Assembly: GCA_024681775.1 (NCBI GenBank)
Contig: JAILAF010000022.1
Location: forward strand, 80-64,079
DNA length: 64,000 nucleotides
Direction of reading: 5' to 3'
Origin: Lachnospiraceae bacterium
GTDB taxonomy: Bacteria; Bacillota; Clostridia; Lachnospirales; Lachnospiraceae
Each line of letters opens with the position of its first letter. Position 1 is the stretch's first letter. A program made the position numbers and the translations under genes. Of the stretch, positions 1,670 through 64,000 are shown piece by piece. The notes beneath the pieces are model-generated. The model was not told the origin of the DNA, searched no databases, and saw nothing but the letters and a program-made list of their open reading frames with translations.

Positions 1670-1978
1670 CTAGATCTTCAGATCAAATCCGGAGGACTGA
1701 CCCTTGATGATGACCCGGTCCTCGTCCTCCTTCCGCTGGCGGCGGCGCTTGCCCCCGTCTCCGGAATATTCATTGGCGCCCTTCTCGGAAGCATCCTGCC
1801 GCTTGTCGTTCCATCTGCTCTCGTCAGCGTGGACCACTTCGGTGGATTTCGCATCGTTTTCCTTCTGCGTCTCCTGCGCGATGGACAGCTGCTCCGCCTG
1901 GGGGCGATTTTCCTCATTTTGCCTGATAATACTGAAATCCTGCGATCTGGCGATCGGTGTGATCTCTAATCCTGCCAT
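1670..1978 (-). CDS. Small charged hypothetical protein of the flagellar cluster
   Basis: 102-aa ORF with GGAGG RBS; ends in a DLKI motif; co-oriented within the operon. Confidence 0.75.
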   Translation of the reverse strand: MAGLEITPIARSQDFSIIRQNEENRPQAEQLSIAQETQKENDAKSTEVVHADESRWNDKRQDASEKGANEYSGDGGKRRRQRKEDEDRVIIKGQSSGFDLKI

Positions 1979-1994
1979 CTGTACACCTCCCGGA

Positions 1995-3584
1995 TTATAG
2001 AGGAAGCATCTTCACGTCGCCGGCAACTTTGGCGAATTTACAGTAGCGGTAGCTGGACTGGATCGTCATGGACAGATCGCCGATGACGATAGTGGTGCCG
2101 GGATAGACCTCGCCGGTGACCCGGACCTCGGACTTCTTATCGGGATCAAAGATGGCGGAGAGCTCCTTGAGTTCCTCGTTCTTCGCAGTGAGTTCGTTCT
2201 TCTTCACCTCAATGGTGGCCACCATCTGCTTGACGTAGTTCAGCTGGTCCTCGGAGAAACGGGCGCCCTTGGCCTTTTTCTCCATGAAGTTCTGGACGAT
2301 GGGCTGGGCGTTCTTGATGACGGCTACGGTCTCCGCGATCTCCTTCTGGAGCATGGTGTAGCGGGCCTTCAGCTTGGGATTGGTACCCACCTCCACGATG
2401 GTGCTGGCGCCCATCTCCGCACCCAGGGTACGGACCTCCACCAGGGAGTCCGCCTGGACCTTGCCGCCGGTGATGAATCCGTGCTTGCCGGTGACGGTGA
2501 TCTCGGTTCCGGAGGTGACATTGCTGTGGAGGATGGACTCGGTACTGACGTACCCTTCCGCTTCCACGGTGGCATTCTCGATGAATTTCGATACCACATT
2601 GCCGCCGGCGATGAGGATGCCCTTGGACATGCCCTTCATGCCCTTGGAGATGATGATATTGCCGCCTGCCTCGACTCTGGCGCCTTCCACCACACCCTTG
2701 ACGATGACGTCACCCGTGGCCTTCACAACGAAATTGGTGTCGATATTTCCGTTTACCTGGACACTGCCGTTAAAGTCGATGTTGCCGGTGGCGGTGCCCA
2801 CGTTCTCTACTTCATAGACATTGGAGACGAAGACCTGCCCGCCCACCAAAGTGACATGTCCGTCAACATTGGAGATGAGGCTCAAGCGATCCTCGGACAG
2901 GGTGATATTGGCGCCGTGCTCTAAGCGGGCGCGCTTTACCTCTCTGGGCTTTAAGCGGTTGCCCTGGAGGTTCATGCCGTACTCGCCCTCATCCGCGGGG
3001 ATGATCCGGGCCAGGACCTGCCCCTTGGAGCAGGGTCGCACCAGGTTCAGGCTGAAGAAGTCCACGGTGCCGTCTTCCTTCACGTCGGGCTTCGCATCCA
3101 CGTTGGTATCGAAATAGTACTCGATCCGGGCGTCGGTGCCATGGCGGGGCGGCTTGCCGACCGCGATGGGCAGATTAAAGCAATAGTACCCGGCGCTGTT
3201 AAAATGCTGATCGATGATCTTGTCCTGGAGTCCGAAGCGGATATTCCGGAAAGGCATATCGTTTTTGAACTCGGCAGCGCTCATACGCTCTCCGGTATCG
3301 GAGGGCGGGAAAAAGCGGGCGAAGGCTTTCATGTTATCCTCGGAGACATTCAGGACATAGGTCTCCCGGATGGCGGGGCACTCTCCGCTTCCCAGCGGTA
3401 CCACCACTTCCTCGCCCTTATCCGCAGCTTCCTTCAGAACCTTCAGATCGTAGTTCAGATTGTGGGTATCCAGGTAGTTCATGACCTCCTGGATGTTGAT
3501 CCCCTCGCCGCCGTCCACGGGCGCAAAGAACTTGATCCCGTAGCCGTCCGACGTTTTTACGACCTTGAAAAACGCATTTTTCAT
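1995..3584 (-). CDS. fapA: FapA family (DUF342) flagellar assembly protein
   Basis: Start reassigned to MKNAFFKVV (ATG at 3584). Motifs VGKPPRHGTDARIEYYF, GTVDFFSLN, VENVGTATGNIDFNGSVQVNG and beta-helix repeats are typical of DUF342. Confidence 0.9.
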   Translation of the reverse strand: MKNAFFKVVKTSDGYGIKFFAPVDGGEGINIQEVMNYLDTHNLNYDLKVLKEAADKGEEVVVPLGSGECPAIRETYVLNVSEDNMKAFARFFPPSDTGERMSAAEFKNDMPFRNIRFGLQDKIIDQHFNSAGYYCFNLPIAVGKPPRHGTDARIEYYFDTNVDAKPDVKEDGTVDFFSLNLVRPCSKGQVLARIIPADEGEYGMNLQGNRLKPREVKRARLEHGANITLSEDRLSLISNVDGHVTLVGGQVFVSNVYEVENVGTATGNIDFNGSVQVNGNIDTNFVVKATGDVIVKGVVEGARVEAGGNIIISKGMKGMSKGILIAGGNVVSKFIENATVEAEGYVSTESILHSNVTSGTEITVTGKHGFITGGKVQADSLVEVRTLGAEMGASTIVEVGTNPKLKARYTMLQKEIAETVAVIKNAQPIVQNFMEKKAKGARFSEDQLNYVKQMVATIEVKKNELTAKNEELKELSAIFDPDKKSEVRVTGEVYPGTTIVIGDLSMTIQSSYRYCKFAKVAGDVKMLPL

Positions 3585-3612
3585 ACTCCATCCCCCAAAT
3601 ATATAGCTTTTT

Positions 3613-3870
3613 TGCCGCTTTGGCGTAGCCAAACGTGCAGTCGAAGCGAAGCTGCGCAGCCATTTGTGTGCCGCTTTGGCGCAGCCAAACGTGCAGTCGA
3701 AGCGAAGCTTCACTGCGTCACTAATGGCGCAGCCATTTGTGTGCCGCTTTGGCGCAGCCAAACGTGCAGTCGAAGCGAAGCTGCGCAGCCATTTGTGTGC
3801 CGCTTTGGCGTAGCTAAACGTGCAGTCGAAGCGAAGCTTCACTGCGTCACTAATGGCGCAGCCATTTGTG
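3613..3870. repeat. Tandem array of four alternating 56/73-bp hairpin units (two 129-bp super-units)
   Basis: Units 3613-3668, 3669-3741, 3742-3797, 3798-3870 share tgccgctttggcg(t/c)agc(c/t)aaacgtgcagtcgaagcgaagct and gcgcagccatttgtg. The long units carry an extra tcactgcgtcactaatg. Confidence 0.97.
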
Positions 3871-3871
3871 A

Positions 3872-4648
3872 CTAGTCCCCAGTAAATACGTTCATATAAG
3901 GTCCCATGACTTTCTTCATCTTCCCCAGCGCTCTGGTGTGGAGCTGGGAAATGCGGGACTCGGAGACCTCCAGCACATTGGCGATCTCCTTTAGGGTCAG
4001 CTCCTCGTAGTAGTAGAGGGTGATGACCTTCTGTTCCTTCTCGGTCAGGGTCTGCAGAGCCTCACCCAGCTTCGCGGTGAGCTCCTGTTTTTCGATGTTC
4101 TCTTCGGGCCCGACGAAGCGGGCGGTGGTGCTGCTTTCGGAGGCCGCTGCGGAGACATCGCTTCCGGAATCCATAAATTCATCCAATGAAACGAGACCGG
4201 TTATCTTCATGGAAGAGAGCCAGTCTACGTATTCTTCATCGGTTATGCCAAGCTCCTGCGCGATCTCCTCGTCGGTGGCCACATGCCCCTTCTCGGCCTC
4301 GATCTTTTTCATGGCCTCATCGATCTGCTTTTGCTTGTTGCGCACGGTGCGCGGGATCCAGTCCATCTTGCGGATCTGGTCCAGGATGGAGCCGCGGATC
4401 CGGAGGCTGGCGTAGGTTTCGAACTTGACGTTCATCCCCAGGTCGAACTTGTCGATGGCATCGATGAGACCGAAGATCCCGTAGCTGCACAGGTCCTCGT
4501 ACTCCACATTGTGTCCCAGATACATGGACAGACGGCCCGCCACCAGCTTCACAAGGGGAGCATATTCCAGGATCATCTTCTCCCGCAGCTCGGGGGATTT
4601 GGTCTTGTCATAATCCTCTATTAACTTGCGCCTTGCAGCATCATCCAT
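3872..4648 (-). CDS. fliA: FliA/SigD (sigma-28) RNA polymerase sigma factor
   Basis: EDLCSYGIFGLIDAIDKFD, FETYASLRIRGSILDQIRKMDW and ELTLKEIANVLEVSESRISQLH regions. Confidence 0.97.
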   Translation of the reverse strand: MDDAARRKLIEDYDKTKSPELREKMILEYAPLVKLVAGRLSMYLGHNVEYEDLCSYGIFGLIDAIDKFDLGMNVKFETYASLRIRGSILDQIRKMDWIPRTVRNKQKQIDEAMKKIEAEKGHVATDEEIAQELGITDEEYVDWLSSMKITGLVSLDEFMDSGSDVSAAASESSTTARFVGPEENIEKQELTAKLGEALQTLTEKEQKVITLYYYEELTLKEIANVLEVSESRISQLHTRALGKMKKVMGPYMNVFTGD

Positions 4649-4670: not shown

Positions 4671-4961
4671 TCACAGTTCTTCGGATGTATCTGAAGGCTC
4701 CCCTTCCCCGGAGGGACCCGCCACGGATTCTTCGGATTCCTTCTCGATGACGTCATCCGGCGGGAGGGCAGCTTCTTCGTTTTCTTTGTCGAACTTGTTG
4801 AGAAACCAAACGATCACAGTACCGATGCAATAAAACACGAAAAGAACAGCAAAAAGACTCCCCAGTTTTCCGGGGATGCTGTAATCCTTCAAAAAGGTGA
4901 TCACCACGGTCACTAACCCGGCGACCAGCATCAAGATCAAAGGTAAGCTTTTGCGGTTCAT
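4671..4961 (-). CDS. Small two-TM hypothetical membrane protein
   Basis: Start MNRKSLPLIL at 4961 with a TGATG overlap with cheD; two hydrophobic helices and an acidic tail. Confidence 0.8.
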   Translation of the reverse strand: MNRKSLPLILMLVAGLVTVVITFLKDYSIPGKLGSLFAVLFVFYCIGTVIVWFLNKFDKENEEAALPPDDVIEKESEESVAGPSGEGEPSDTSEEL

Positions 4962-5449
4962 CAGATGGTCTTTTCTCCCTTTCCTACAGACTTGATCACA
5001 TAATCGCCCGTCTCCGGGTAAAAGACCACGGTGCGGCCGTAATTCAAGCCGCAATCCTCCGAAAGGATTGGAATCTTCAGCTCTGCGAGCTTTTGCTTCA
5101 CGGCTTCCACGTTGCGCTCGCCCACCTGGATGTTGCCGGCCTTGGACTGAAATGCGAACATCATGGCACCGCCGGCGATCTTAGCAACCATTCTCCGGCG
5201 TACGGCGCCCAGGGCTTCCATCTGTTTGACCAGCTCATCGATCCCGGTATCCGCGAACTTTGCCAAGTTCATCTGGGCAAGGTTCACCGCGGTGGAATCG
5301 GGCAACATGATATGGGCCAGTCCGCCGACCTTATTGGTGGTATCCCGAAGTGCGATACCCACACAGGAGCCAAGGCCCAGAGTTGTTATTCCATTGGGAG
5401 GCAGGCAGGTTTTTAAATCTGCCATTCCAACTTTGATTATTTCACTCAT
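4961..5449 (-). CDS. cheD: Chemoreceptor glutamine deamidase CheD
   Basis: TLGLGSCVGIAL, GGLAHIMLP, KFADTG, AKIAGGA motifs; start MSEIIKVG. Confidence 0.97.
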   Translation of the reverse strand: MSEIIKVGMADLKTCLPPNGITTLGLGSCVGIALRDTTNKVGGLAHIMLPDSTAVNLAQMNLAKFADTGIDELVKQMEALGAVRRRMVAKIAGGAMMFAFQSKAGNIQVGERNVEAVKQKLAELKIPILSEDCGLNYGRTVVFYPETGDYVIKSVGKGEKTI

Positions 5450-19197: not shown

Positions 19198-20487
19198 TTA
19201 TTTTATGATCTCTGTTACTCTGATTCCGAAACTTTCTTCGATCACGACGACCTCGCCTCTCGCAACGAACTTGCCGTTGACCAGGACGTCGATGGGCTCA
19301 CCGGCAATGCGGTCGAGCTCTATGATGGTGCCCGGAGCGAAATTCAGGATCTCGGAGATGGACTTCGTGGTCCGTCCGAGCTCTACCGTAACCTCCAGGG
19401 GTACATCCATGATAAGGCCGATGTTCTCGCCGCCCTGTACATTGTTCAGCGCACCGTTGAAGGACTGGAAGGATGCGGGCTGGACATTGACGGGCTGCTG
19501 CATCGGCATGCCGTACATCGGCATCTGCATCGGCATACCCTGCATGGGCATACCCTGCATGGGCATTCCCTGCATCGGCATACCCTGCATGGGCATTCCC
19601 ATGTTGGGATCCATCGTGCCGGGCATGGGCTGCGTCATCTGCGCCGAAGGATCTGCGAAGGCTGTGGGCGCCGGCGCCGGAGCAGGTGTGGGTGCCGGTT
19701 CGGGAGCGGGTGCCGCTCCGCCTGTCTGCTGGTTGATGAAGGTCTCCACCAGCTTCCGGGCAAATTCCACCGGATACAGCTGCATGATGGTGGAGTCCAC
19801 CAGATCATCGCCGATCTGCATCCGGAACTGGATCTTGACGAAGGTTCCTCCCAGGAAGGGTGAGATCTCTGCTCCGGATTTGTACTGTGCCAGATCCAGA
19901 AGGGAGGAATCCGGAGGCGAGATGTCGATCATGGTGGCCAGCATGGTGGACAGGGACGTTGCCGCCGCTCCCATCATCTGGTTCATAGCCTCCGAGATCG
20001 CACTCAGGTGCAGCTCGGAAAGTTCTCCCTCCGTATTGGTACCGTCACCGCCCATCATCAGGTCGGTGATGACCTTCACGTCATGTTCCTTCAGCACCAG
20101 GATATTGGTACCGTCCAGACCCTTGGTGTACTTGATCTGAATGAAGACGCAGGGCTTTTCGTAGTTTTCGAGAATGGACTCCCACTTTGCCAGGGATACG
20201 ATCGGGGTGGTGATGTTTACCTTGCGGTTGACCAGCGAGTAGAGTGTGGTGGCCGAGGAGCCCATACTGATATTGGCTACCTCTCCGATCGCATCCTTCT
20301 CTACATCCGACAGCAGATCGTCTCCGCCGTCAATGGCGGGCGTGTCAATCAGGTATGCATCCTTGGGCGGTTCAGGTTGTGCAGCCATCGCTTCCGTATA
20401 GCTGCTCAGATCGGGCGCCTCATCTCCGGACAGATCCATGCCGCTTAGGAGGGCATTGATCTCGTCCTGGGATAGCATTCCATCCAT
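19198..20487 (-). CDS. fliY: Flagellar switch phosphatase FliY (CheC-like plus FliN domain)
   Basis: LSQDEINALL; DAIGEVANISMG and SAISEAMNQMMG; C-terminal SpoA domain DVPLEVTVELG. Confidence 0.96.
   Translation of the reverse strand: MDGMLSQDEINALLSGMDLSGDEAPDLSSYTEAMAAQPEPPKDAYLIDTPAIDGGDDLLSDVEKDAIGEVANISMGSSATTLYSLVNRKVNITTPIVSLAKWESILENYEKPCVFIQIKYTKGLDGTNILVLKEHDVKVITDLMMGGDGTNTEGELSELHLSAISEAMNQMMGAAATSLSTMLATMIDISPPDSSLLDLAQYKSGAEISPFLGGTFVKIQFRMQIGDDLVDSTIMQLYPVEFARKLVETFINQQTGGAAPAPEPAPTPAPAPAPTAFADPSAQMTQPMPGTMDPNMGMPMQGMPMQGMPMQGMPMQGMPMQMPMYGMPMQQPVNVQPASFQSFNGALNNVQGGENIGLIMDVPLEVTVELGRTTKSISEILNFAPGTIIELDRIAGEPIDVLVNGKFVARGEVVVIEESFGIRVTEIIK
19525..19599 (-). repeat. Five 15-bp in-frame repeats encoding (GMPMQ)5 in FliY
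   Basis: ctgcat(c/g)ggcat(a/t)cc x5 on the plus strand. Confidence 0.95.
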
Positions 20488-33385: not shown

Positions 33386-34987
33386 TCAGCCCCACTCGTC
33401 GGCCAGCCAGTTCCGCAGGAGGATGGCTGCAGCTTCGGGGTTCTCGTCCACGAATTTCTCGATCATCTTTCTGGTCTCGGACTTGGTCTCCACATCGATA
33501 TCCTCGATGGTAGGCTCGGGGTTGGACTGGAGCAGATCCTCCACGGAGATCTCCTCCGGCTCCTCCTGGGGCTTCTTGCCGGGGAGCATGTTCCGGAGCA
33601 CCACAAATGCCAGCAGGCCCAGGATCAGCAGGAAGAGCAGGGCGCTTAAGACCGTGGTCCAGCTGATGGCAAGGCCTTCCTTGTCGTAGAAAATGGGGGC
33701 TTCGTAAGCGATGATGGAAATATTGGCTGCCGGGAAGCCGCTGGCGTTGGCCACGGCCACCACCAGATCGTCCGTCACGGTCTGCCGCACCATATCGGAA
33801 TTGTTCAGCTTATACTCTTCCCAGGTGATGCCGTCCAGGAGTCCCTGGAGCTCCACGTCCTCCTGATGGACCGCCTTGTAGGAAATGGCGGCGATGGACA
33901 GGGAAGAATTGTTGTAATTGATGCTGCCTGCGGGAGTCACCTTATACTCGGCACTCTCGTTGGGCGCGTAATCGGTCTCCGTCTCGGTGACGGCGGAGGA
34001 GGAGTTGTCGTAATCACTGGTGACGTAGGTGGTGCCTTCCCCGTTGGAATCGGTGCCGGGGATGCCGCCCACGCCGCTCTCGTTCTCGGACTCGTAGTTC
34101 TCGTTATGGATGATCATACCCTCGGTACGGCCTTCGGGAGCGGAGTATTCCTTGACGGTCTTCTCGTAGTTGGAATAGTCCATGTCCAGATGGCTGGACA
34201 CTTCCACATTGTCGTACTGGTGGGTGCCGATCATGAAGCTCTTGATGGTATTGGCCACCTGGCACTCGGCCTGGGTCTGGAGCTCCAGCATGGAGCTTGC
34301 GATGCCGGCGGTGGAGTACTCATCTCCGCCTGCAAAGAGGAGCTCTGCGTTGTTGTCGACGATGGTGATCTTCGCCGTGGTGTCATTGCCCAGGGCGGTA
34401 GCGACGCATCTGGCCACATAGGCTGCATTGGAAGAGGTGAAGTACCCGTTGGTCTCCAGCTGCACATAGGCGCCGGCTTCCTCCTCCTGTGCGATGAGGG
34501 TGCCGTTTTGCTCGGGGATGGAAAGGGTAATCTTCGCACTCTTGATGGAATCGATGTTCTCCAGCATGCCCTCGATCCTGGACTCCAGGTAGAGCTGCTT
34601 CCGGAAGGCCCGCTCACTGGCGGTGGTGGACAGGGAGGATGCCAGGGCATCGTCCACGGTGAACTCATCCGCGACATAGCCGTCTGCGGCCAGTGCCAGC
34701 TCCGCCTTGGAAAGGGAGCCGGTCTCCACATCGATCTTCAGAGCGTCGGTGGAGATCTGGTAAGGGATGCCGTTGCTTTCCAGGATCTGCACCACCTGAT
34801 TGGACTGGGTGGTATTCTCGCAGGTCATGAGTCTGGTGTAACGGGGTCTGGAGACCACGTACACGATGACACCGAAAACAATGATGGTGAAGATCGTAAG
34901 GCCGATGATGATCCCCTTCTGCCTTCCGGTGAACTTCCCCCACCATTCCCTGATTCGATTGAGGATGTTTTGGATTTGTTCTGGCAT
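33386..34987 (-). CDS. fliF: Flagellar M-ring protein FliF
   Basis: Two TM segments flanking a large extracytoplasmic region; C-terminal ENPEAAAILLRNWL; between fliE and fliG. Confidence 0.93.
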   Translation of the reverse strand: MPEQIQNILNRIREWWGKFTGRQKGIIIGLTIFTIIVFGVIVYVVSRPRYTRLMTCENTTQSNQVVQILESNGIPYQISTDALKIDVETGSLSKAELALAADGYVADEFTVDDALASSLSTTASERAFRKQLYLESRIEGMLENIDSIKSAKITLSIPEQNGTLIAQEEEAGAYVQLETNGYFTSSNAAYVARCVATALGNDTTAKITIVDNNAELLFAGGDEYSTAGIASSMLELQTQAECQVANTIKSFMIGTHQYDNVEVSSHLDMDYSNYEKTVKEYSAPEGRTEGMIIHNENYESENESGVGGIPGTDSNGEGTTYVTSDYDNSSSAVTETETDYAPNESAEYKVTPAGSINYNNSSLSIAAISYKAVHQEDVELQGLLDGITWEEYKLNNSDMVRQTVTDDLVVAVANASGFPAANISIIAYEAPIFYDKEGLAISWTTVLSALLFLLILGLLAFVVLRNMLPGKKPQEEPEEISVEDLLQSNPEPTIEDIDVETKSETRKMIEKFVDENPEAAAILLRNWLADEWG

Positions 34988-35035: not shown

Positions 35036-35443
35036 GAAAGACCACAGCTTGCTCAGGGCATGAAACATACATCGCGATTTAGCAAATGAGCGATTATGTT
35101 TTATGCACGGAGCAAGCGACACTAAGTTCAGAGTCTGCTTATGTCCATTCAGCTCATTTTCTAAACACGAAAGTCCGCAGCTTGCTTTGGGCATGAAACA
35201 CACATCGCGATTTAGCAAATGAGCGATTATGTTTTATGCACAGAGCAAGCGACACTAAGTTCAGAGTCCGCTTATGTCCATTCAGCTCATTTTCTAAACA
35301 CGAAAGCCCGCAGCTTGCTTTGGGCATGAAACATGCATCGCGATTTAGCAAATGAGCGATCATGTTTTATGCACGGAGCAAGCAACACTAAGTTCAGAAT
35401 CCGCTCAGTTCAAAAATGCAAAACGCTCATTTGCTAAATCGCG
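35036..35443. repeat. 133-bp tandem repeat (about 2.8 copies) with long internal hairpins and a terminal inverted copy of its 20-bp core
   Basis: Copies 35036-35168, 35169-35301, 35302-35405. Core cgcgatttagcaaatgagcg at 35073, 35206 and 35339; its reverse complement at 35424-35443. Confidence 0.97.
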
Positions 35444-35474
35444 TTTTACATTTATGAACTTCGCTGTGCTCAAC

Positions 35475-35810
35475 TTAGATCTGAATCTGCATTAACTCTT
35501 TATATGCCTCCAGCAATTTGTCGCGGATGGCCACGGTGTACTGCAGCGCGGTGGATGCTTTCTCCAGCGCGACGGTCAGGTCGTGGGTGCTGTCGGATTC
35601 GCCCAGGGCAAAGAGGATCTCCTGGTTCTCCGCATCGGACAGATAGGCATTGGTGGTCTGGATGTTGTCCAGGGCCGTGTTCAGGAAGGACTCGAACATA
35701 GTGCCCTCGGCCTTGGAGGAGTCGGCTCCCAGCCCGCGGACCACGCCGTTTGCGGAGGTTTTGTACAGGTCGGTCACGCCCTGCAGTTCTTTTAACAATG
35801 AGACGTCCAT
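35475..35810 (-). CDS. fliE: Hook-basal body protein FliE
   Basis: THDLTVALEKASTALQYTVAIRDKLLEAYKELMQIQI. Confidence 0.95.
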   Translation of the reverse strand: MDVSLLKELQGVTDLYKTSANGVVRGLGADSSKAEGTMFESFLNTALDNIQTTNAYLSDAENQEILFALGESDSTHDLTVALEKASTALQYTVAIRDKLLEAYKELMQIQI

Positions 35811-61895: not shown

Positions 61896-61958
61896 TGAAG
61901 ACAAAAGAACCGTCCCCTTGTCCTCACTGAAGACAGAAGGACCGTCCCCCTGTCCTCA
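61896..61958. repeat. Pair of 31-bp REP-like hairpin repeats (period 32)
   Basis: tgaagacaaaagaaccgtccccttgtcctca and tgaagacagaaggaccgtccccctgtcctca; stems GACAA/TTGTC and GACAG/CTGTC. Confidence 0.9.
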
Positions 61959-63313: not shown

Positions 63314-63577
63314 TCAGGCCTCCACCAGTTCCTTCCATACTGCTTCAAACACCTGATCCGTATCAAAATCCGGTGCAAAACGCCCCGCGATATCACAGAT
63401 CAGCTGCACCCTTATCTCATCCTCTTCCACCTCATCCGCAATCTGCGGAACGTCCTTGCCTCTGCGAAGCTTTCTGCAGATTTGATCGATCAAATGGCGT
63501 TCTGATCCTTTCTCTATTCCTTTCTCTATTCCTTTCTCTATTCCTTTTTCCATAAAGATCTCTGCAAATCCTTCCAT
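63314..63577 (-). CDS. Candidate intragenic small protein (Rpn-S-like, 87 aa)
   Basis: Perfect SD AGGAGGT (63591-63585), 7-nt spacer, in-frame ATG at 63577 (MEGFAEIFMEKG...). Confidence 0.6.
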   Translation of the reverse strand: MEGFAEIFMEKGIEKGIEKGIEKGSERHLIDQICRKLRRGKDVPQIADEVEEDEIRVQLICDIAGRFAPDFDTDQVFEAVWKELVEA

Positions 63578-64000
63578 TGTTTTTACCTCCTCCGCGACCT
63601 GTGGTCTGCTTTCTATATCTACGTACTTTTTTACTGCTTCCGTCTTTCCCGCATTTACACTTTCGATATACTCAAATACACTGTTTTCAGGAACCTCACT
63701 GCCCAGGCGGACGAACACGACACTCATCAGGTCATAGTTTTCCGCTGCATCCGGCGTATCCCCGATCAGATCCCGTTTCTTTAACTCTATGAGACTCACG
63801 CTGTTCTGCAGTACTTTCGGCACATCCCGTACCATCACCCAGATGCTGTAACACTTCTCCAACGCCCCATAGTCCGTCACATGGGTACTGTAGGAAAGCT
63901 GCGAGCACAATTCCCTTGCCACATAATATACCGCCCTCTTTTCCGGCGGATATGACTTCTTCGCACCCTTATCCGTCACATAGTAGCGGTTCTGGATCTC
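63314..64000 (-). CDS. Rpn/YhgA-like PD-(D/E)XK nuclease family protein (5' end outside the window)
   Basis: Frame open to the window edge: EIQNRYY...RAVYYVARELCSQL, CYSIWV, YDLMSVVFVRL; C-terminal (EKGI)n repeats. Confidence 0.85.
   Translation of the reverse strand, partial: EIQNRYYVTDKGAKKSYPPEKRAVYYVARELCSQLSYSTHVTDYGALEKCYSIWVMVRDVPKVLQNSVSLIELKKRDLIGDTPDAAENYDLMSVVFVRLGSEVPENSVFEYIESVNAGKTEAVKKYVDIESRPQVAEEVKTMEGFAEIFMEKGIEKGIEKGIEKGSERHLIDQICRKLRRGKDVPQIADEVEEDEIRVQLICDIAGRFAPDFDTDQVFEAVWKELVEA
63506..63553 (-). repeat. 12-bp tandem repeat encoding (I/M)EKG x4
   Basis: tcctttctctat x3 plus tcctttttccat. Confidence 0.95.

What the first reader, a model, noticed from the sequence alone, without database searches (positions are those of the whole stretch)
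3613..3870. 56/73-bp alternating array built from GC-GNA-GC DNA minihairpins between fliA and fapA
Seen: each unit has three GC-GNA-GC heptamers on the plus strand: tttgGC-GTA/GCA-GCcaaa, GC-GAA-GC and GC-GCA-GC. In the first hairpin the loop varies only at N (GTA vs GCA). The 17-bp insert of the long units completes extra stems (gcagt.gaag/cttc.actgc; aatggc-GCA-gccatt). Known: d(GCGNAGC) minihairpins are exceptionally stable in single-stranded DNA and much less so in RNA. The GNA loops lie on the non-mRNA strand. Inference: the array is selected or propagated at the ssDNA level, like REP/BIME elements of HUH (Y1) transposases, and has amplified inside a motility operon.
Basis: partly seen in the sequence, partly recalled or inferred. 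Interest (0 to 1): 0.72.

Follow-up and report, generated by a model that had tools for sequence, protein, structure and literature searches.

The report
Strain-specific hairpin repeat between fliA and fapA
A 258-base stretch made of four copies of a small hairpin-forming module sits between two flagellar genes of an uncultured rumen Lachnospiraceae bacterium. It looks like a recent local duplication found in one strain lineage only, not a mobile REP-like element, so it is a modest curiosity.

Summary
Positions 3613-3870 are four head-to-tail units of 56/73/56/73 bp, that is 2 x 129 bp differing at 3 positions. They fill the spacer between the stop codon of fliA/sigD (3872-4648, minus strand) and the start of fapA (1995-3584, minus strand), inside a long flagellar/chemotaxis operon. 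Every unit carries three GCGNAGC heptamers on the + strand, which is the template strand.

The REP/BIME/HUH interpretation finds no support:
- The core occurs nowhere else in the 64-kb window or in about 1 Mb of related Lachnospiraceae loci.
- It is absent from 185,579 species-representative genomes, JGI metagenome contigs, viral contigs, plasmids and phages.
- No Y1/RAYT gene lies in the window, and all hairpins point the same way.

Close relatives show how it arose. The nearest strain has an empty 21-nt spacer. A slightly more distant strain has one long-type unit at the same junction. In 83 related loci the spacer has a median of about 30 nt.

My best reading is a lineage-specific tandem amplification of a locus-specific palindromic module, co-transcribed within the operon. 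Any effect on the mRNA is unproven. The rest of this genome could not be searched, so a dispersed family is not fully excluded. Interest is low to moderate.

The parts
3613..3668 (+). Unit 1, short type (56 bp); loop of hairpin C is GTA
3669..3741 (+). Unit 2, long type (73 bp); loop of hairpin C is GCA
3742..3797 (+). Unit 3, short type (56 bp); loop of hairpin C is GCA
3798..3870 (+). Unit 4, long type (73 bp). Loop of hairpin C is GTA, plus C>T at 3815. This unit abuts the fliA stop codon.
3675..3689 (.). Hairpin C (TTTGGC-GNA-GCCAAA). Copies at 3619-3633, 3675-3689, 3748-3762 and 3804-3818; the last has a G.T pair on the + strand and an A.C mismatch on the mRNA strand.
3693..3716 (.). Hairpin B (GCAGT-c-GAAGC GAA GCTTC ACTGC), complete only in the long units. 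Second copy at 3822-3845.
3719..3741 (.). Hairpin A (CAC-t-AATGGC GCA GCCATT-t-GTG), complete only in the long units. The second copy at 3848-3870 extends to 3846-3872 and so overlaps the last base of the fliA stop codon.
   Evidence: (I11, I18)
3710..3726 (+). 17-nt segment present in long units and absent from short units (second copy 3839-3855). Its loss joins half of hairpin B to half of hairpin A and creates the palindrome GCTGCGCAGC (3651-3660, 3780-3789).
   Evidence: I14
3585..3612 (-). Unique tail of the spacer with the fapA ribosome-binding site GGGGGATGGAG (3586-3596), outside the array
3872..4648 (-). fliA/sigD-type flagellar sigma factor; stop codon TAG at 3874-3872
1995..3584 (-). 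fapA (FapA_N + FapA), true start ATG at 3584-3582. The mechanical ORF runs on in frame through the array to GTG 3842, which is an annotation trap.

Best explanation
This is a non-coding tandem amplification, specific to one strain lineage, of a small palindromic module in the fliA-fapA spacer of the fla/che operon of an uncultured ruminant-gut Lachnospiraceae bacterium.

The module has three short hairpins, A, B and C, and starts at the fliA stop codon. A sister lineage carries one copy of it. The closest strain carries none.

In the window lineage I infer this sequence of events:
1. The right arm of hairpin C was completed, plausibly by a template switch.
2. The unit was duplicated.
3. One copy lost 17 nt between the loop of A and the loop of B, giving the 56-bp form.
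4. The 129-bp pair was duplicated again by slipped-strand mispairing or unequal recombination.
5. Three C/T changes have accumulated since.

Stable hairpins, on either strand of the DNA, probably favoured these slippage events.

The array has no promoter or terminator, so it should be transcribed as part of the operon mRNA. There it would form about eight to ten stem-loops between the fliA stop codon and the unchanged fapA ribosome-binding site. Any effect is most likely modest and at the RNA level: a longer, structured spacer that could slow exonucleases or shift the fliA:fapA ratio, in the way REP, BOX or MIRU elements do inside operons.

Shown: the anatomy, the allele series, the absence of other copies in the sequence searched, and the absence of a transposase in the window.
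Inferred: the order of events, the slippage mechanism, transcription of the array, and any RNA effect.
For: - Anatomy.
- Allele series at the same site:
  - L003 (FliA 100%, FapA 98.6% identical) has a 21-nt spacer with no unit.
  - The same empty allele appears in a sheep-gut DNA contig and an RNA contig.
  - L004 (FliA 98%, FapA 90%) has one long-type unit with the identical left junction (GAC TAG TCACAAATGG) and lacks the right arm of hairpin C.
  - The window has four units.
- In 83 related Lachnospiraceae loci the spacer has a median of about 30 nt and a maximum of about 130 nt. None contains the unit.
- No other copy of the core:
  - window
  - GTDB species representatives
  - JGI metagenome contigs, where the only 2 hits are chance matches in coding sequence
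  - viral contigs
  - plasmids and phages
  - proteins translated from the array in two frames
- In the metagenomes that hold the strain, array unitigs have the same depth as the flanks (4.4 against 4.9) and no foreign flanks.
- No promoter or terminator lies in the array, and there is no Rfam match.
- The surrounding genes form one co-directional fla/che operon.
- Non-coding arrays of this size are rare in about 1 Mb of related loci.
Against: - The species is not among the GTDB representatives (best FliA identity 84%), and only about 64 kb of this genome is available. Dispersed copies elsewhere in the genome cannot be excluded.
- The closest strain is empty while a more distant one is filled. 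This needs either loss of the module or exchange of the spacer by recombination. The filled and empty alleles also differ in the last two fliA codons and show no clean target duplication, so the origin of the module is unexplained.
- All hairpin loops are GNA on one strand. For two independent hairpins this has a chance of about 1 in 128 (post hoc), and a purely neutral account does not predict it.
- No RNA data exist for the array allele.
Confidence: 0.62

Rival explanations
1. The array is a selected RNA element of the operon mRNA. The stack of stem-loops stabilises the upstream fliA segment or protects or processes the downstream fapA segment, and the number of units tunes the fliA:fapA ratio.
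For: - It lies within a co-transcribed spacer, with no terminator or promoter.
- Both strands fold well; the mRNA strand gives -119.4 kcal/mol, z = -2.9.
- The fapA ribosome-binding site is kept outside the array.
- REP/BIME elements are reported to affect mRNA stability in operons (PMC3184786).
- Some relatives also carry a hairpin or terminator after fliA (L011, L035, L049).
Against: - Nearest strains have none or one unit, and 83 relatives manage with about 30 nt.
- The loops on the mRNA strand are UGC/UAC/UUC triloops, with no known stable RNA loop motif.
- The one stem substitution gives an A.C mismatch on the mRNA strand.
- The z-score of the mRNA strand is the weakest of the four folds.
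- There is no covariation to test and no RNA data for this allele.
Confidence: 0.17
2. The units are REP/BIME- or MITE-like elements recognised as single-stranded DNA hairpins by an HUH (Y1/RAYT/IS200-type) enzyme, and are spread or amplified by it.
For: - Three GNA triloops closed by C-G lie on the same strand.
- d(GCGNAGC) is exceptionally stable as DNA (PMC13037366).
- C>T at 3815 keeps a G.T pair on the + strand only.
- The alternation of two unit sizes superficially recalls BIME arrays.
- The rest of the genome is unseen.
Against: - No other copy was found anywhere searchable.
- There is no Y1/RAYT or any other transposase among about 55 ORFs of the window.
- There is no unpaired GTAG/CGTC tag, and all hairpins are in direct rather than alternating orientation.
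- There is no GNA bias in other hairpins of the window.
- The + strand has negative GC skew. It is therefore probably the leading-strand template, not the lagging-strand template that IS200/IS605-type enzymes use (the enzyme preference is from my own knowledge).
- Array depth equals flank depth in metagenomes.
Confidence: 0.07
3. The array is a cluster of operator sites in double-stranded DNA. Six copies of the palindrome TGGCG(C/T)AGCCA (hairpins A and C) would bind a dimeric regulator in front of fapA.
For: - Perfect odd-spaced palindromes with a shared 11-bp core recur six times in 258 bp.
- Palindromes with 3-nt centres are typical of dimer binding sites (general knowledge).
Against: - There is no promoter to regulate here.
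- The sites are absent from the nearest strains.
- The motif is not enriched elsewhere in the window.
- No candidate regulator was identified.
Confidence: 0.05
4. The array is an assembly artefact of a metagenome-assembled genome.
For: The window comes from a metagenomic contig. Repeats of this kind are hard to assemble, and the number of units is not verified.
Against: Unitigs from four independent runs reproduce the short-to-long and long-short-long junctions and the array-to-fliA junction. L004 from another assembly carries the same unit at the same place.
Confidence: 0.03

Closest known systems
MIRU-type intercistronic tandem repeats (Mycobacterium; Supply et al. 1997, as summarised in PMC3184786)
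   Same: - Units of 40-100 bp repeated head to tail in spacers between genes of one operon.
- Co-transcribed with the operon.
- Size classes that differ by internal deletions (this point is from my own knowledge).
- Ends touching the neighbouring genes; here the module overlaps the fliA stop codon.
- Filled and empty sites, and copy number differing between strains.
   Different: MIRUs occur at about 40-50 loci per genome and carry small coupled ORFs. Here only one locus is known and there is no start codon or ribosome-binding site inside the array. No sequence relation was tested, and the organisms are unrelated.
REP/BIME elements with RAYT (TnpA-REP) transposases (PMC2817692, PMC3733652)
   Same: Short G+C-rich palindromes in an operon spacer, clustered, with two alternating spacings. 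They could act as mRNA stem-loops.
   Different: REPs number more than 100 per genome, carry an unpaired GTAG or CGTC tag, alternate in orientation within BIMEs, and flank a RAYT gene. None of these features was found here.
BOX elements of Streptococcus pneumoniae (PMC3184786)
   Same: A modular, hairpin-forming, transcribed intergenic element in a Gram-positive bacterium, with a variable number of an internal module (the variable module number is from my own knowledge).
   Different: BOX is dispersed in more than 100 copies (from my own knowledge) and has defined boxA and boxC ends. Here there is a single locus with no terminal modules.
d(GCGNAGC) mini-hairpins at single-strand replication origins and phage N4 promoters (PMC13037366)
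   Same: The identical heptamer motif, with GAA, GCA and GTA loops closed by C-G.
   Different: The known cases lie in single-stranded phage or plasmid origins, or in hairpin promoters used by a virion RNA polymerase. Here the motif lies in a chromosomal operon spacer with no replication or phage context.
Hairpins created by template switching during replication (PMC8794818)
   Same: Perfect stems appear abruptly between close relatives. L004 has TTTGGCTAC + ATCA, where the window has TTTGGCTAC + GCCAAA.
   Different: That mechanism explains the birth of stems but not the tandem amplification. The direction of change here is not established.

Membership tests
REP/BIME (RAYT-associated) | High copy number, dispersed in intergenic regions (usually more than 100 per genome; PMC2817692) | tested here: inconclusive
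   No further copies in the 64-kb window, in about 1 Mb of related loci, in GTDB representatives, or in JGI metagenomes. Array depth equals flank depth and there are no foreign flanks in the metagenomes that hold the strain. However, the rest of this genome is unavailable and the species is not among the representatives.
REP/BIME (RAYT-associated) | Unpaired GTAG or CGTC tag at one end of each palindrome (PMC3733652) | tested here: not met
   GTAG occurs only across the loop and 3' arm of hairpin C in units 1 and 4, and is GCAG in units 2 and 3. CGTC occurs only in long units and is partly inside a stem.
REP/BIME (RAYT-associated) | BIME architecture: REPs in alternating orientation | tested here: not met
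   All hairpins have their GNA loop on the + strand, so they are in direct orientation.
REP/BIME (RAYT-associated) | A Y1/RAYT transposase gene flanked by copies | tested here: not met
   Pfam scans of about 55 ORFs covering the window found flagellar, chemotaxis and housekeeping genes only, and no Y1_Tnp or other transposase. The rest of the genome is not testable.
MIRU-like intercistronic tandem repeat (VNTR) | Tandem units of 40-100 bp in a spacer between co-transcribed genes | tested here: met
   Units of 56 and 73 bp lie between fliA and fapA inside the fla/che operon.
MIRU-like intercistronic tandem repeat (VNTR) | Copy number differs between strains; filled and empty sites exist | tested here: met
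   0 units in L003, X5 and X21; 1 unit in L004; 4 units in the window, X1 and X4.
MIRU-like intercistronic tandem repeat (VNTR) | The same unit present at tens of loci in the genome | tested here: inconclusive
   Only one locus was found in everything searchable. The genome itself is not available.
MIRU-like intercistronic tandem repeat (VNTR) | Small ORFs in the units that overlap the stop and start codons of the neighbouring genes | tested here: not met
   The array is open in the fapA frame from GTG 3842, but no ribosome-binding site precedes it, and it is not in frame with the fliA stop codon.
d(GCGNAGC) mini-hairpin motif | Heptamer GCGNAGC (GNA loop closed by C-G) | tested here: met
   12 copies on the + strand within the array.
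d(GCGNAGC) mini-hairpin motif | Forms as single-stranded DNA in the cell | not testable with these tools
   Nearest-neighbour folding does not distinguish the strands: -77.0 against -76.1 kcal/mol as DNA.
Intrinsic terminator | G+C-rich stem followed by a U run on the transcribed strand | tested here: not met
   No such site on the minus (mRNA) strand. There is one weak + strand match, within the number expected by chance.
Any Rfam RNA family | Covariance-model match | tested here: not met
   Only four chance-level matches outside the array, with E-values from 0.6 upward.
CRISPR array | Identical repeats separated by unique spacers | tested here: not met
   The units abut with no unique spacers. 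The only protein-level resemblance is a chance match to a translated CRISPR-like repeat (P0122).

The most novel reading that the evidence does not exclude
The GNA-triloop hairpins on the template strand are functional single-stranded-DNA elements. The module would be the founder, or a member, of an undescribed REP-like or mini-hairpin repeat family in rumen Lachnospiraceae. It would be amplified because an HUH enzyme, a primase or the replisome handles these unusually stable DNA hairpins. The second hairpin array in the same operon (35036-35405) could be a parallel case.
Probability: 0.06. Interest if true: 0.65.

Novelty: new member of a known kind. Interest (0 to 1): 0.25.

Why it matters
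If the reading is right, the locus is a clean natural series of 0, 1 and 4 units. It shows how a structured spacer is born and expands inside a tightly packed operon, next to the flagellar sigma factor gene. It could serve as a strain marker for this rumen lineage. It also offers a small test case for asking whether unusually stable DNA mini-hairpins promote tandem duplication. It does not reveal a new mobile element or a new regulatory principle. A practical point: the array is open in the fapA reading frame, so gene callers may give FapA a false 86-residue N-terminal extension.

Tried and rejected
**Searches for further copies**
- 34-nt core pattern (33 specified bases) against 185,579 species-representative genomes: no hit.
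- 20-nt core against JGI metagenome contigs: two chance hits inside unrelated coding sequence.
- 20-nt core against viral contigs: none.
- blastn of the array against plasmids and phages: none.
- Translating the array and searching protein collections, to catch miscalled ORFs over similar arrays:
  - Minus frame: no hit among 5.8 billion clusters.
  - Plus frame: five weak hits, all repeat proteins or translated repeats with no real relation.

**Rejected or uninformative analyses**
- Rfam: nothing.
- Promoter and terminator scan: nothing in the array.
- Remote similarity between the L004 spacer and the 55-nt spacer of the relatives with about 85% FliA identity: not above shuffles, p = 0.47.
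- Target-site duplication between filled and empty alleles: none convincing. TACA flanks the L004 insert, but the empty allele holds 13 other bases there.
- RNA evidence: the two metatranscriptome runs hold only the empty allele or fliA fragments.

**Look-ups that failed**
- Exact-protein look-ups for the window's own FliA and FliE: not on record.

**Tests with no resolving power**
- Copy number from depth is not resolvable. No 31-mer is shared by all four units, and unitigs of shared words are too short to be laid.

Full report
**1. What is there**

Reading 3300-4200 shows four abutting units on the + strand:
- 3613-3668 (56 bp)
- 3669-3741 (73 bp)
- 3742-3797 (56 bp)
- 3798-3870 (73 bp)

Tandem Repeats Finder reports this as period 129, 2.0 copies, 97% matches. 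The 40-nt core occurs four times with at most two mismatches and never in shuffles.

The long unit holds three hairpins:
- C: TTTGGC-GNA-GCCAAA
- B: GCAGT-c-GAAGC-GAA-GCTTC-ACTGC
- A: CAC-t-AATGGC-GCA-GCCATT-t-GTG

The short unit lacks 17 nt (3710-3726 in unit 2). That removes one arm each of B and A and leaves the palindrome GCTGCGCAGC.

GCGNAGC occurs 12 times on the + strand of the array. The two 129-bp copies differ at three positions, all C/T on the + strand:
- Two are the middle base of the loop of hairpin C (T, C, C, T in units 1 to 4).
- One is 3815 in the 3' arm of hairpin C of unit 4.

**2. Context**

All genes here are on the minus strand.
- 3872-4648 is a FliA/WhiG (SigD-type) sigma factor.
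- 1995-3584 is FapA; its true start is the ATG at 3584-3582, preceded by GGGGGATGGAG.

Pfam scans of about 55 ORFs show that the window is a classical Firmicute fla/che operon. The gene order is codY, flgB, flgC, fliE, fliF, fliG, fliH, fliI, fliJ, fliK, flgD, flgE, motA, motB, fliL, fliM, fliY, cheY, fliO, fliP, fliR, flhB, flhA, flhF, a MinD/ParA-like ATPase, a PilZ protein, cheB, cheA, cheW, cheC, cheD, fliA, fapA. It is followed by housekeeping genes (topA, polC, ispG, lepA, gap, tpi and others). There is no transposase and no HUH/Y1 protein.

The array occupies most of a 287-nt spacer between the fliA stop codon and the fapA start. It has no promoter-like or terminator-like site on the mRNA strand and no Rfam match. 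The + strand has negative GC skew. Replication therefore probably runs in the direction of transcription, and the + strand would be the leading-strand template. This is an inference from a weak skew.

**3. Organism and relatives**

FliA homologues are named Lachnospiraceae or Acetatifactor. The runs that hold the sequence are ruminant gut metagenomes. The best species representative in GTDB has only 84% FliA identity, so this species is not represented there.

Three alleles of the spacer exist in close relatives:
- **Empty.** L003 (FliA 100%, FapA 98.6% identical) has a 21-nt spacer with no unit, and fliA ends ...TES* instead of ...TGD*. The same allele appears in a sheep-gut DNA contig (the joint 3585>3882) and in a sheep-gut metatranscriptome contig that runs from fliA into the spacer.
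- **One unit.** L004 (FliA 98%, FapA 90%) has hairpins A and B and the left arm of C right after GAC TAG. This is the same left junction as in the window. It is followed by ATCATGGGGGGATGGAGT ATG.
- **Four units.** This is the window. Pieces of the array are confirmed in unitigs of runs X1, X4, X22 and X24, all from one study.

In 83 related loci the spacer has a median of about 30 nt and a maximum of about 130 nt, and none contains the unit. My count started one codon upstream of the ATG, so the printed values are 3 nt too short.

Non-coding tandem arrays of this size are rare in about 1 Mb of related loci. Almost all arrays with a period of 30 or more there have periods divisible by three and lie in a low-complexity gene.

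**4. Is it a dispersed element?**

Every search I could run says no:
- No other copy in the window.
- None in the related loci.
- None in 185,579 representative genomes.
- Only two chance 20-mers in JGI metagenome contigs.
- None in viral contigs, plasmids or phages.
- No protein in the large collections that looks like a translation of a similar array.

In the metagenomes that hold the strain, array unitigs have the depth of the flanks (4.4 against 4.9 in X4) and never continue into foreign sequence.

There are two limits. The rest of this genome is not available.

**5. The GNA loops**

An RNA analogue measured in the same review, r(GCGAAAGC), melts at 39 C (PMC13037366).

All hairpins of the array have GNA loops closed by C-G on the + strand. 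However, A and C share the core GGCGCAGCC and are probably copies of each other, so at most two hairpins are independent. The chance of two same-strand GNA loops is about 1/8 x 1/16 = 1/128, and this figure is post hoc.

Outside the array, triloop hairpins show no bias: 11 GNA and 12 TNC out of 108. Nearest-neighbour folding gives the two strands equal stability. The one exception is unit 4, whose C>T keeps a G.T (or G.U) pair on the + strand and gives A.C on the mRNA strand. That is a single observation.

If the skew inference holds, the GNA strand is the leading-strand template and the sequence of the nascent lagging strand. It is not the lagging-strand template that IS200/IS605-type enzymes prefer (the enzyme preference is from my own knowledge). 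Stable hairpins in nascent strands could still favour slippage.

**6. Most likely history and mechanism**

The single-unit allele is of the long type. The long unit is therefore probably the older form, and the short unit is a 17-nt deletion derivative.

L004 has TTTGGCTAC followed by unrelated bases, where the window has TTTGGCTAC-GCCAAA. This is the signature expected of a template switch that completes a palindrome (compare PMC8794818), although the direction of change is not established.

A duplication, the 17-nt deletion and a second duplication of the 129-bp pair would give the present array. The T, C, C, T pattern at the loop position does not fit a simple x-y-x-y duplication. It needs a further mutation or a conversion event.

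The closest strain (L003) is empty while the more distant L004 is filled. The spacer was therefore either lost in L003 or exchanged by recombination. The last two fliA codons differ between filled and empty alleles, and no target duplication is seen. The ultimate origin of the module is unknown.

**7. Function**

Nothing shows a function. The array should be transcribed with the operon, and the empty-allele RNA contig crosses the fliA stop codon. On the mRNA it would form a chain of stem-loops that starts at the stop codon and ends 16 nt before the fapA ribosome-binding site. REP/BIME elements are reported to affect mRNA stability in operons, and BOX elements to modulate gene expression (PMC3184786). 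A similar modest effect is possible. The absence of the array from the nearest strains argues that it is dispensable.

**8. Comparison with known systems**

It works most like an intercistronic tandem repeat of the MIRU kind. These have units of 40-100 bp inside operons, are co-transcribed, have ends touching the neighbouring genes, and show filled and empty sites (PMC3184786). It is not a member of that family: only one locus is known and there are no coupled ORFs.

It fails the defining tests of REP/BIME, namely tag, orientation and RAYT, with copy number inconclusive. It is not a terminator, a CRISPR array or a known RNA family.

**9. Verdict**

The feature is real and was correctly described. 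Its best explanation is a local, recent amplification of a hairpin module in one strain lineage. The analogy with HUH-mobilised REP/BIME elements is not supported. Interest is low to moderate.

Noticed in passing
window 35036-35405 (plus 35405-35470): A second, unrelated non-coding tandem array lies in the same operon, between fliE (35475-35810, -) and fliF (33386-34987, -). It has a 133-bp period, 2.8 copies and 94% matches. Each unit forms a long imperfect hairpin of about 25 bp with a 14-nt loop (UCAUUUGCUAAAUC on the mRNA). Next to fliE there is a fourth, differently built hairpin whose loop is the reverse complement of that 14-mer. The mRNA strand folds at z = -4.8. No copy occurs elsewhere in the window or in the related loci. 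Pieces of it occur in runs X1 and X4, and with differences in X5, the strain that lacks the fliA-fapA array.
   Followed up: partly
window 3585-3842, minus strand: The array contains no stop codon in the fapA reading frame. The mechanical ORF therefore starts at GTG 3842 and gives a 615-aa 'FapA' with a false 86-residue N-terminal extension. A 244-aa + strand ORF (3141-3875) also runs through the whole array.
   Followed up: yes
loci L011, L035, L036, L049, L072 (spacer after fliA): Several other Lachnospiraceae have their own unrelated inserts in the fliA-fapA spacer. L011 has a terminator-like hairpin with a T run. L035, L036 and L049 have palindromes. L072 has a short tandem repeat (GAGGAACCGATCT-like, four copies). 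This spacer seems prone to gaining structured sequence.
   Followed up: no
window 19498-19600: A 15-nt repeat (CTGCATCGGCATACC, about 7 copies, 82% matches) lies inside the fliY-like gene (19198-20487, -). It would encode a pentapeptide repeat between the CheC-like and FliN domains.
   Followed up: no
window 63506-63547 and 61896-61958: A perfect 12-nt repeat (TCCTTTCTCTAT, 3.5 copies) lies inside an ORF with no Pfam match (63314-63979, -). A 32-nt direct repeat (2 copies) lies in the spacer between the S41 peptidase gene and gap.
   Followed up: no
window 4671-5054 (-) and 1670-1978 (-): Two small conserved ORFs without a Pfam match flank the region. One is a predicted membrane protein between cheD and fliA, called as 96-97 aa in relatives. 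The other is a roughly 100-aa charged protein just after fapA, called as 104 aa in relatives.
   Followed up: no
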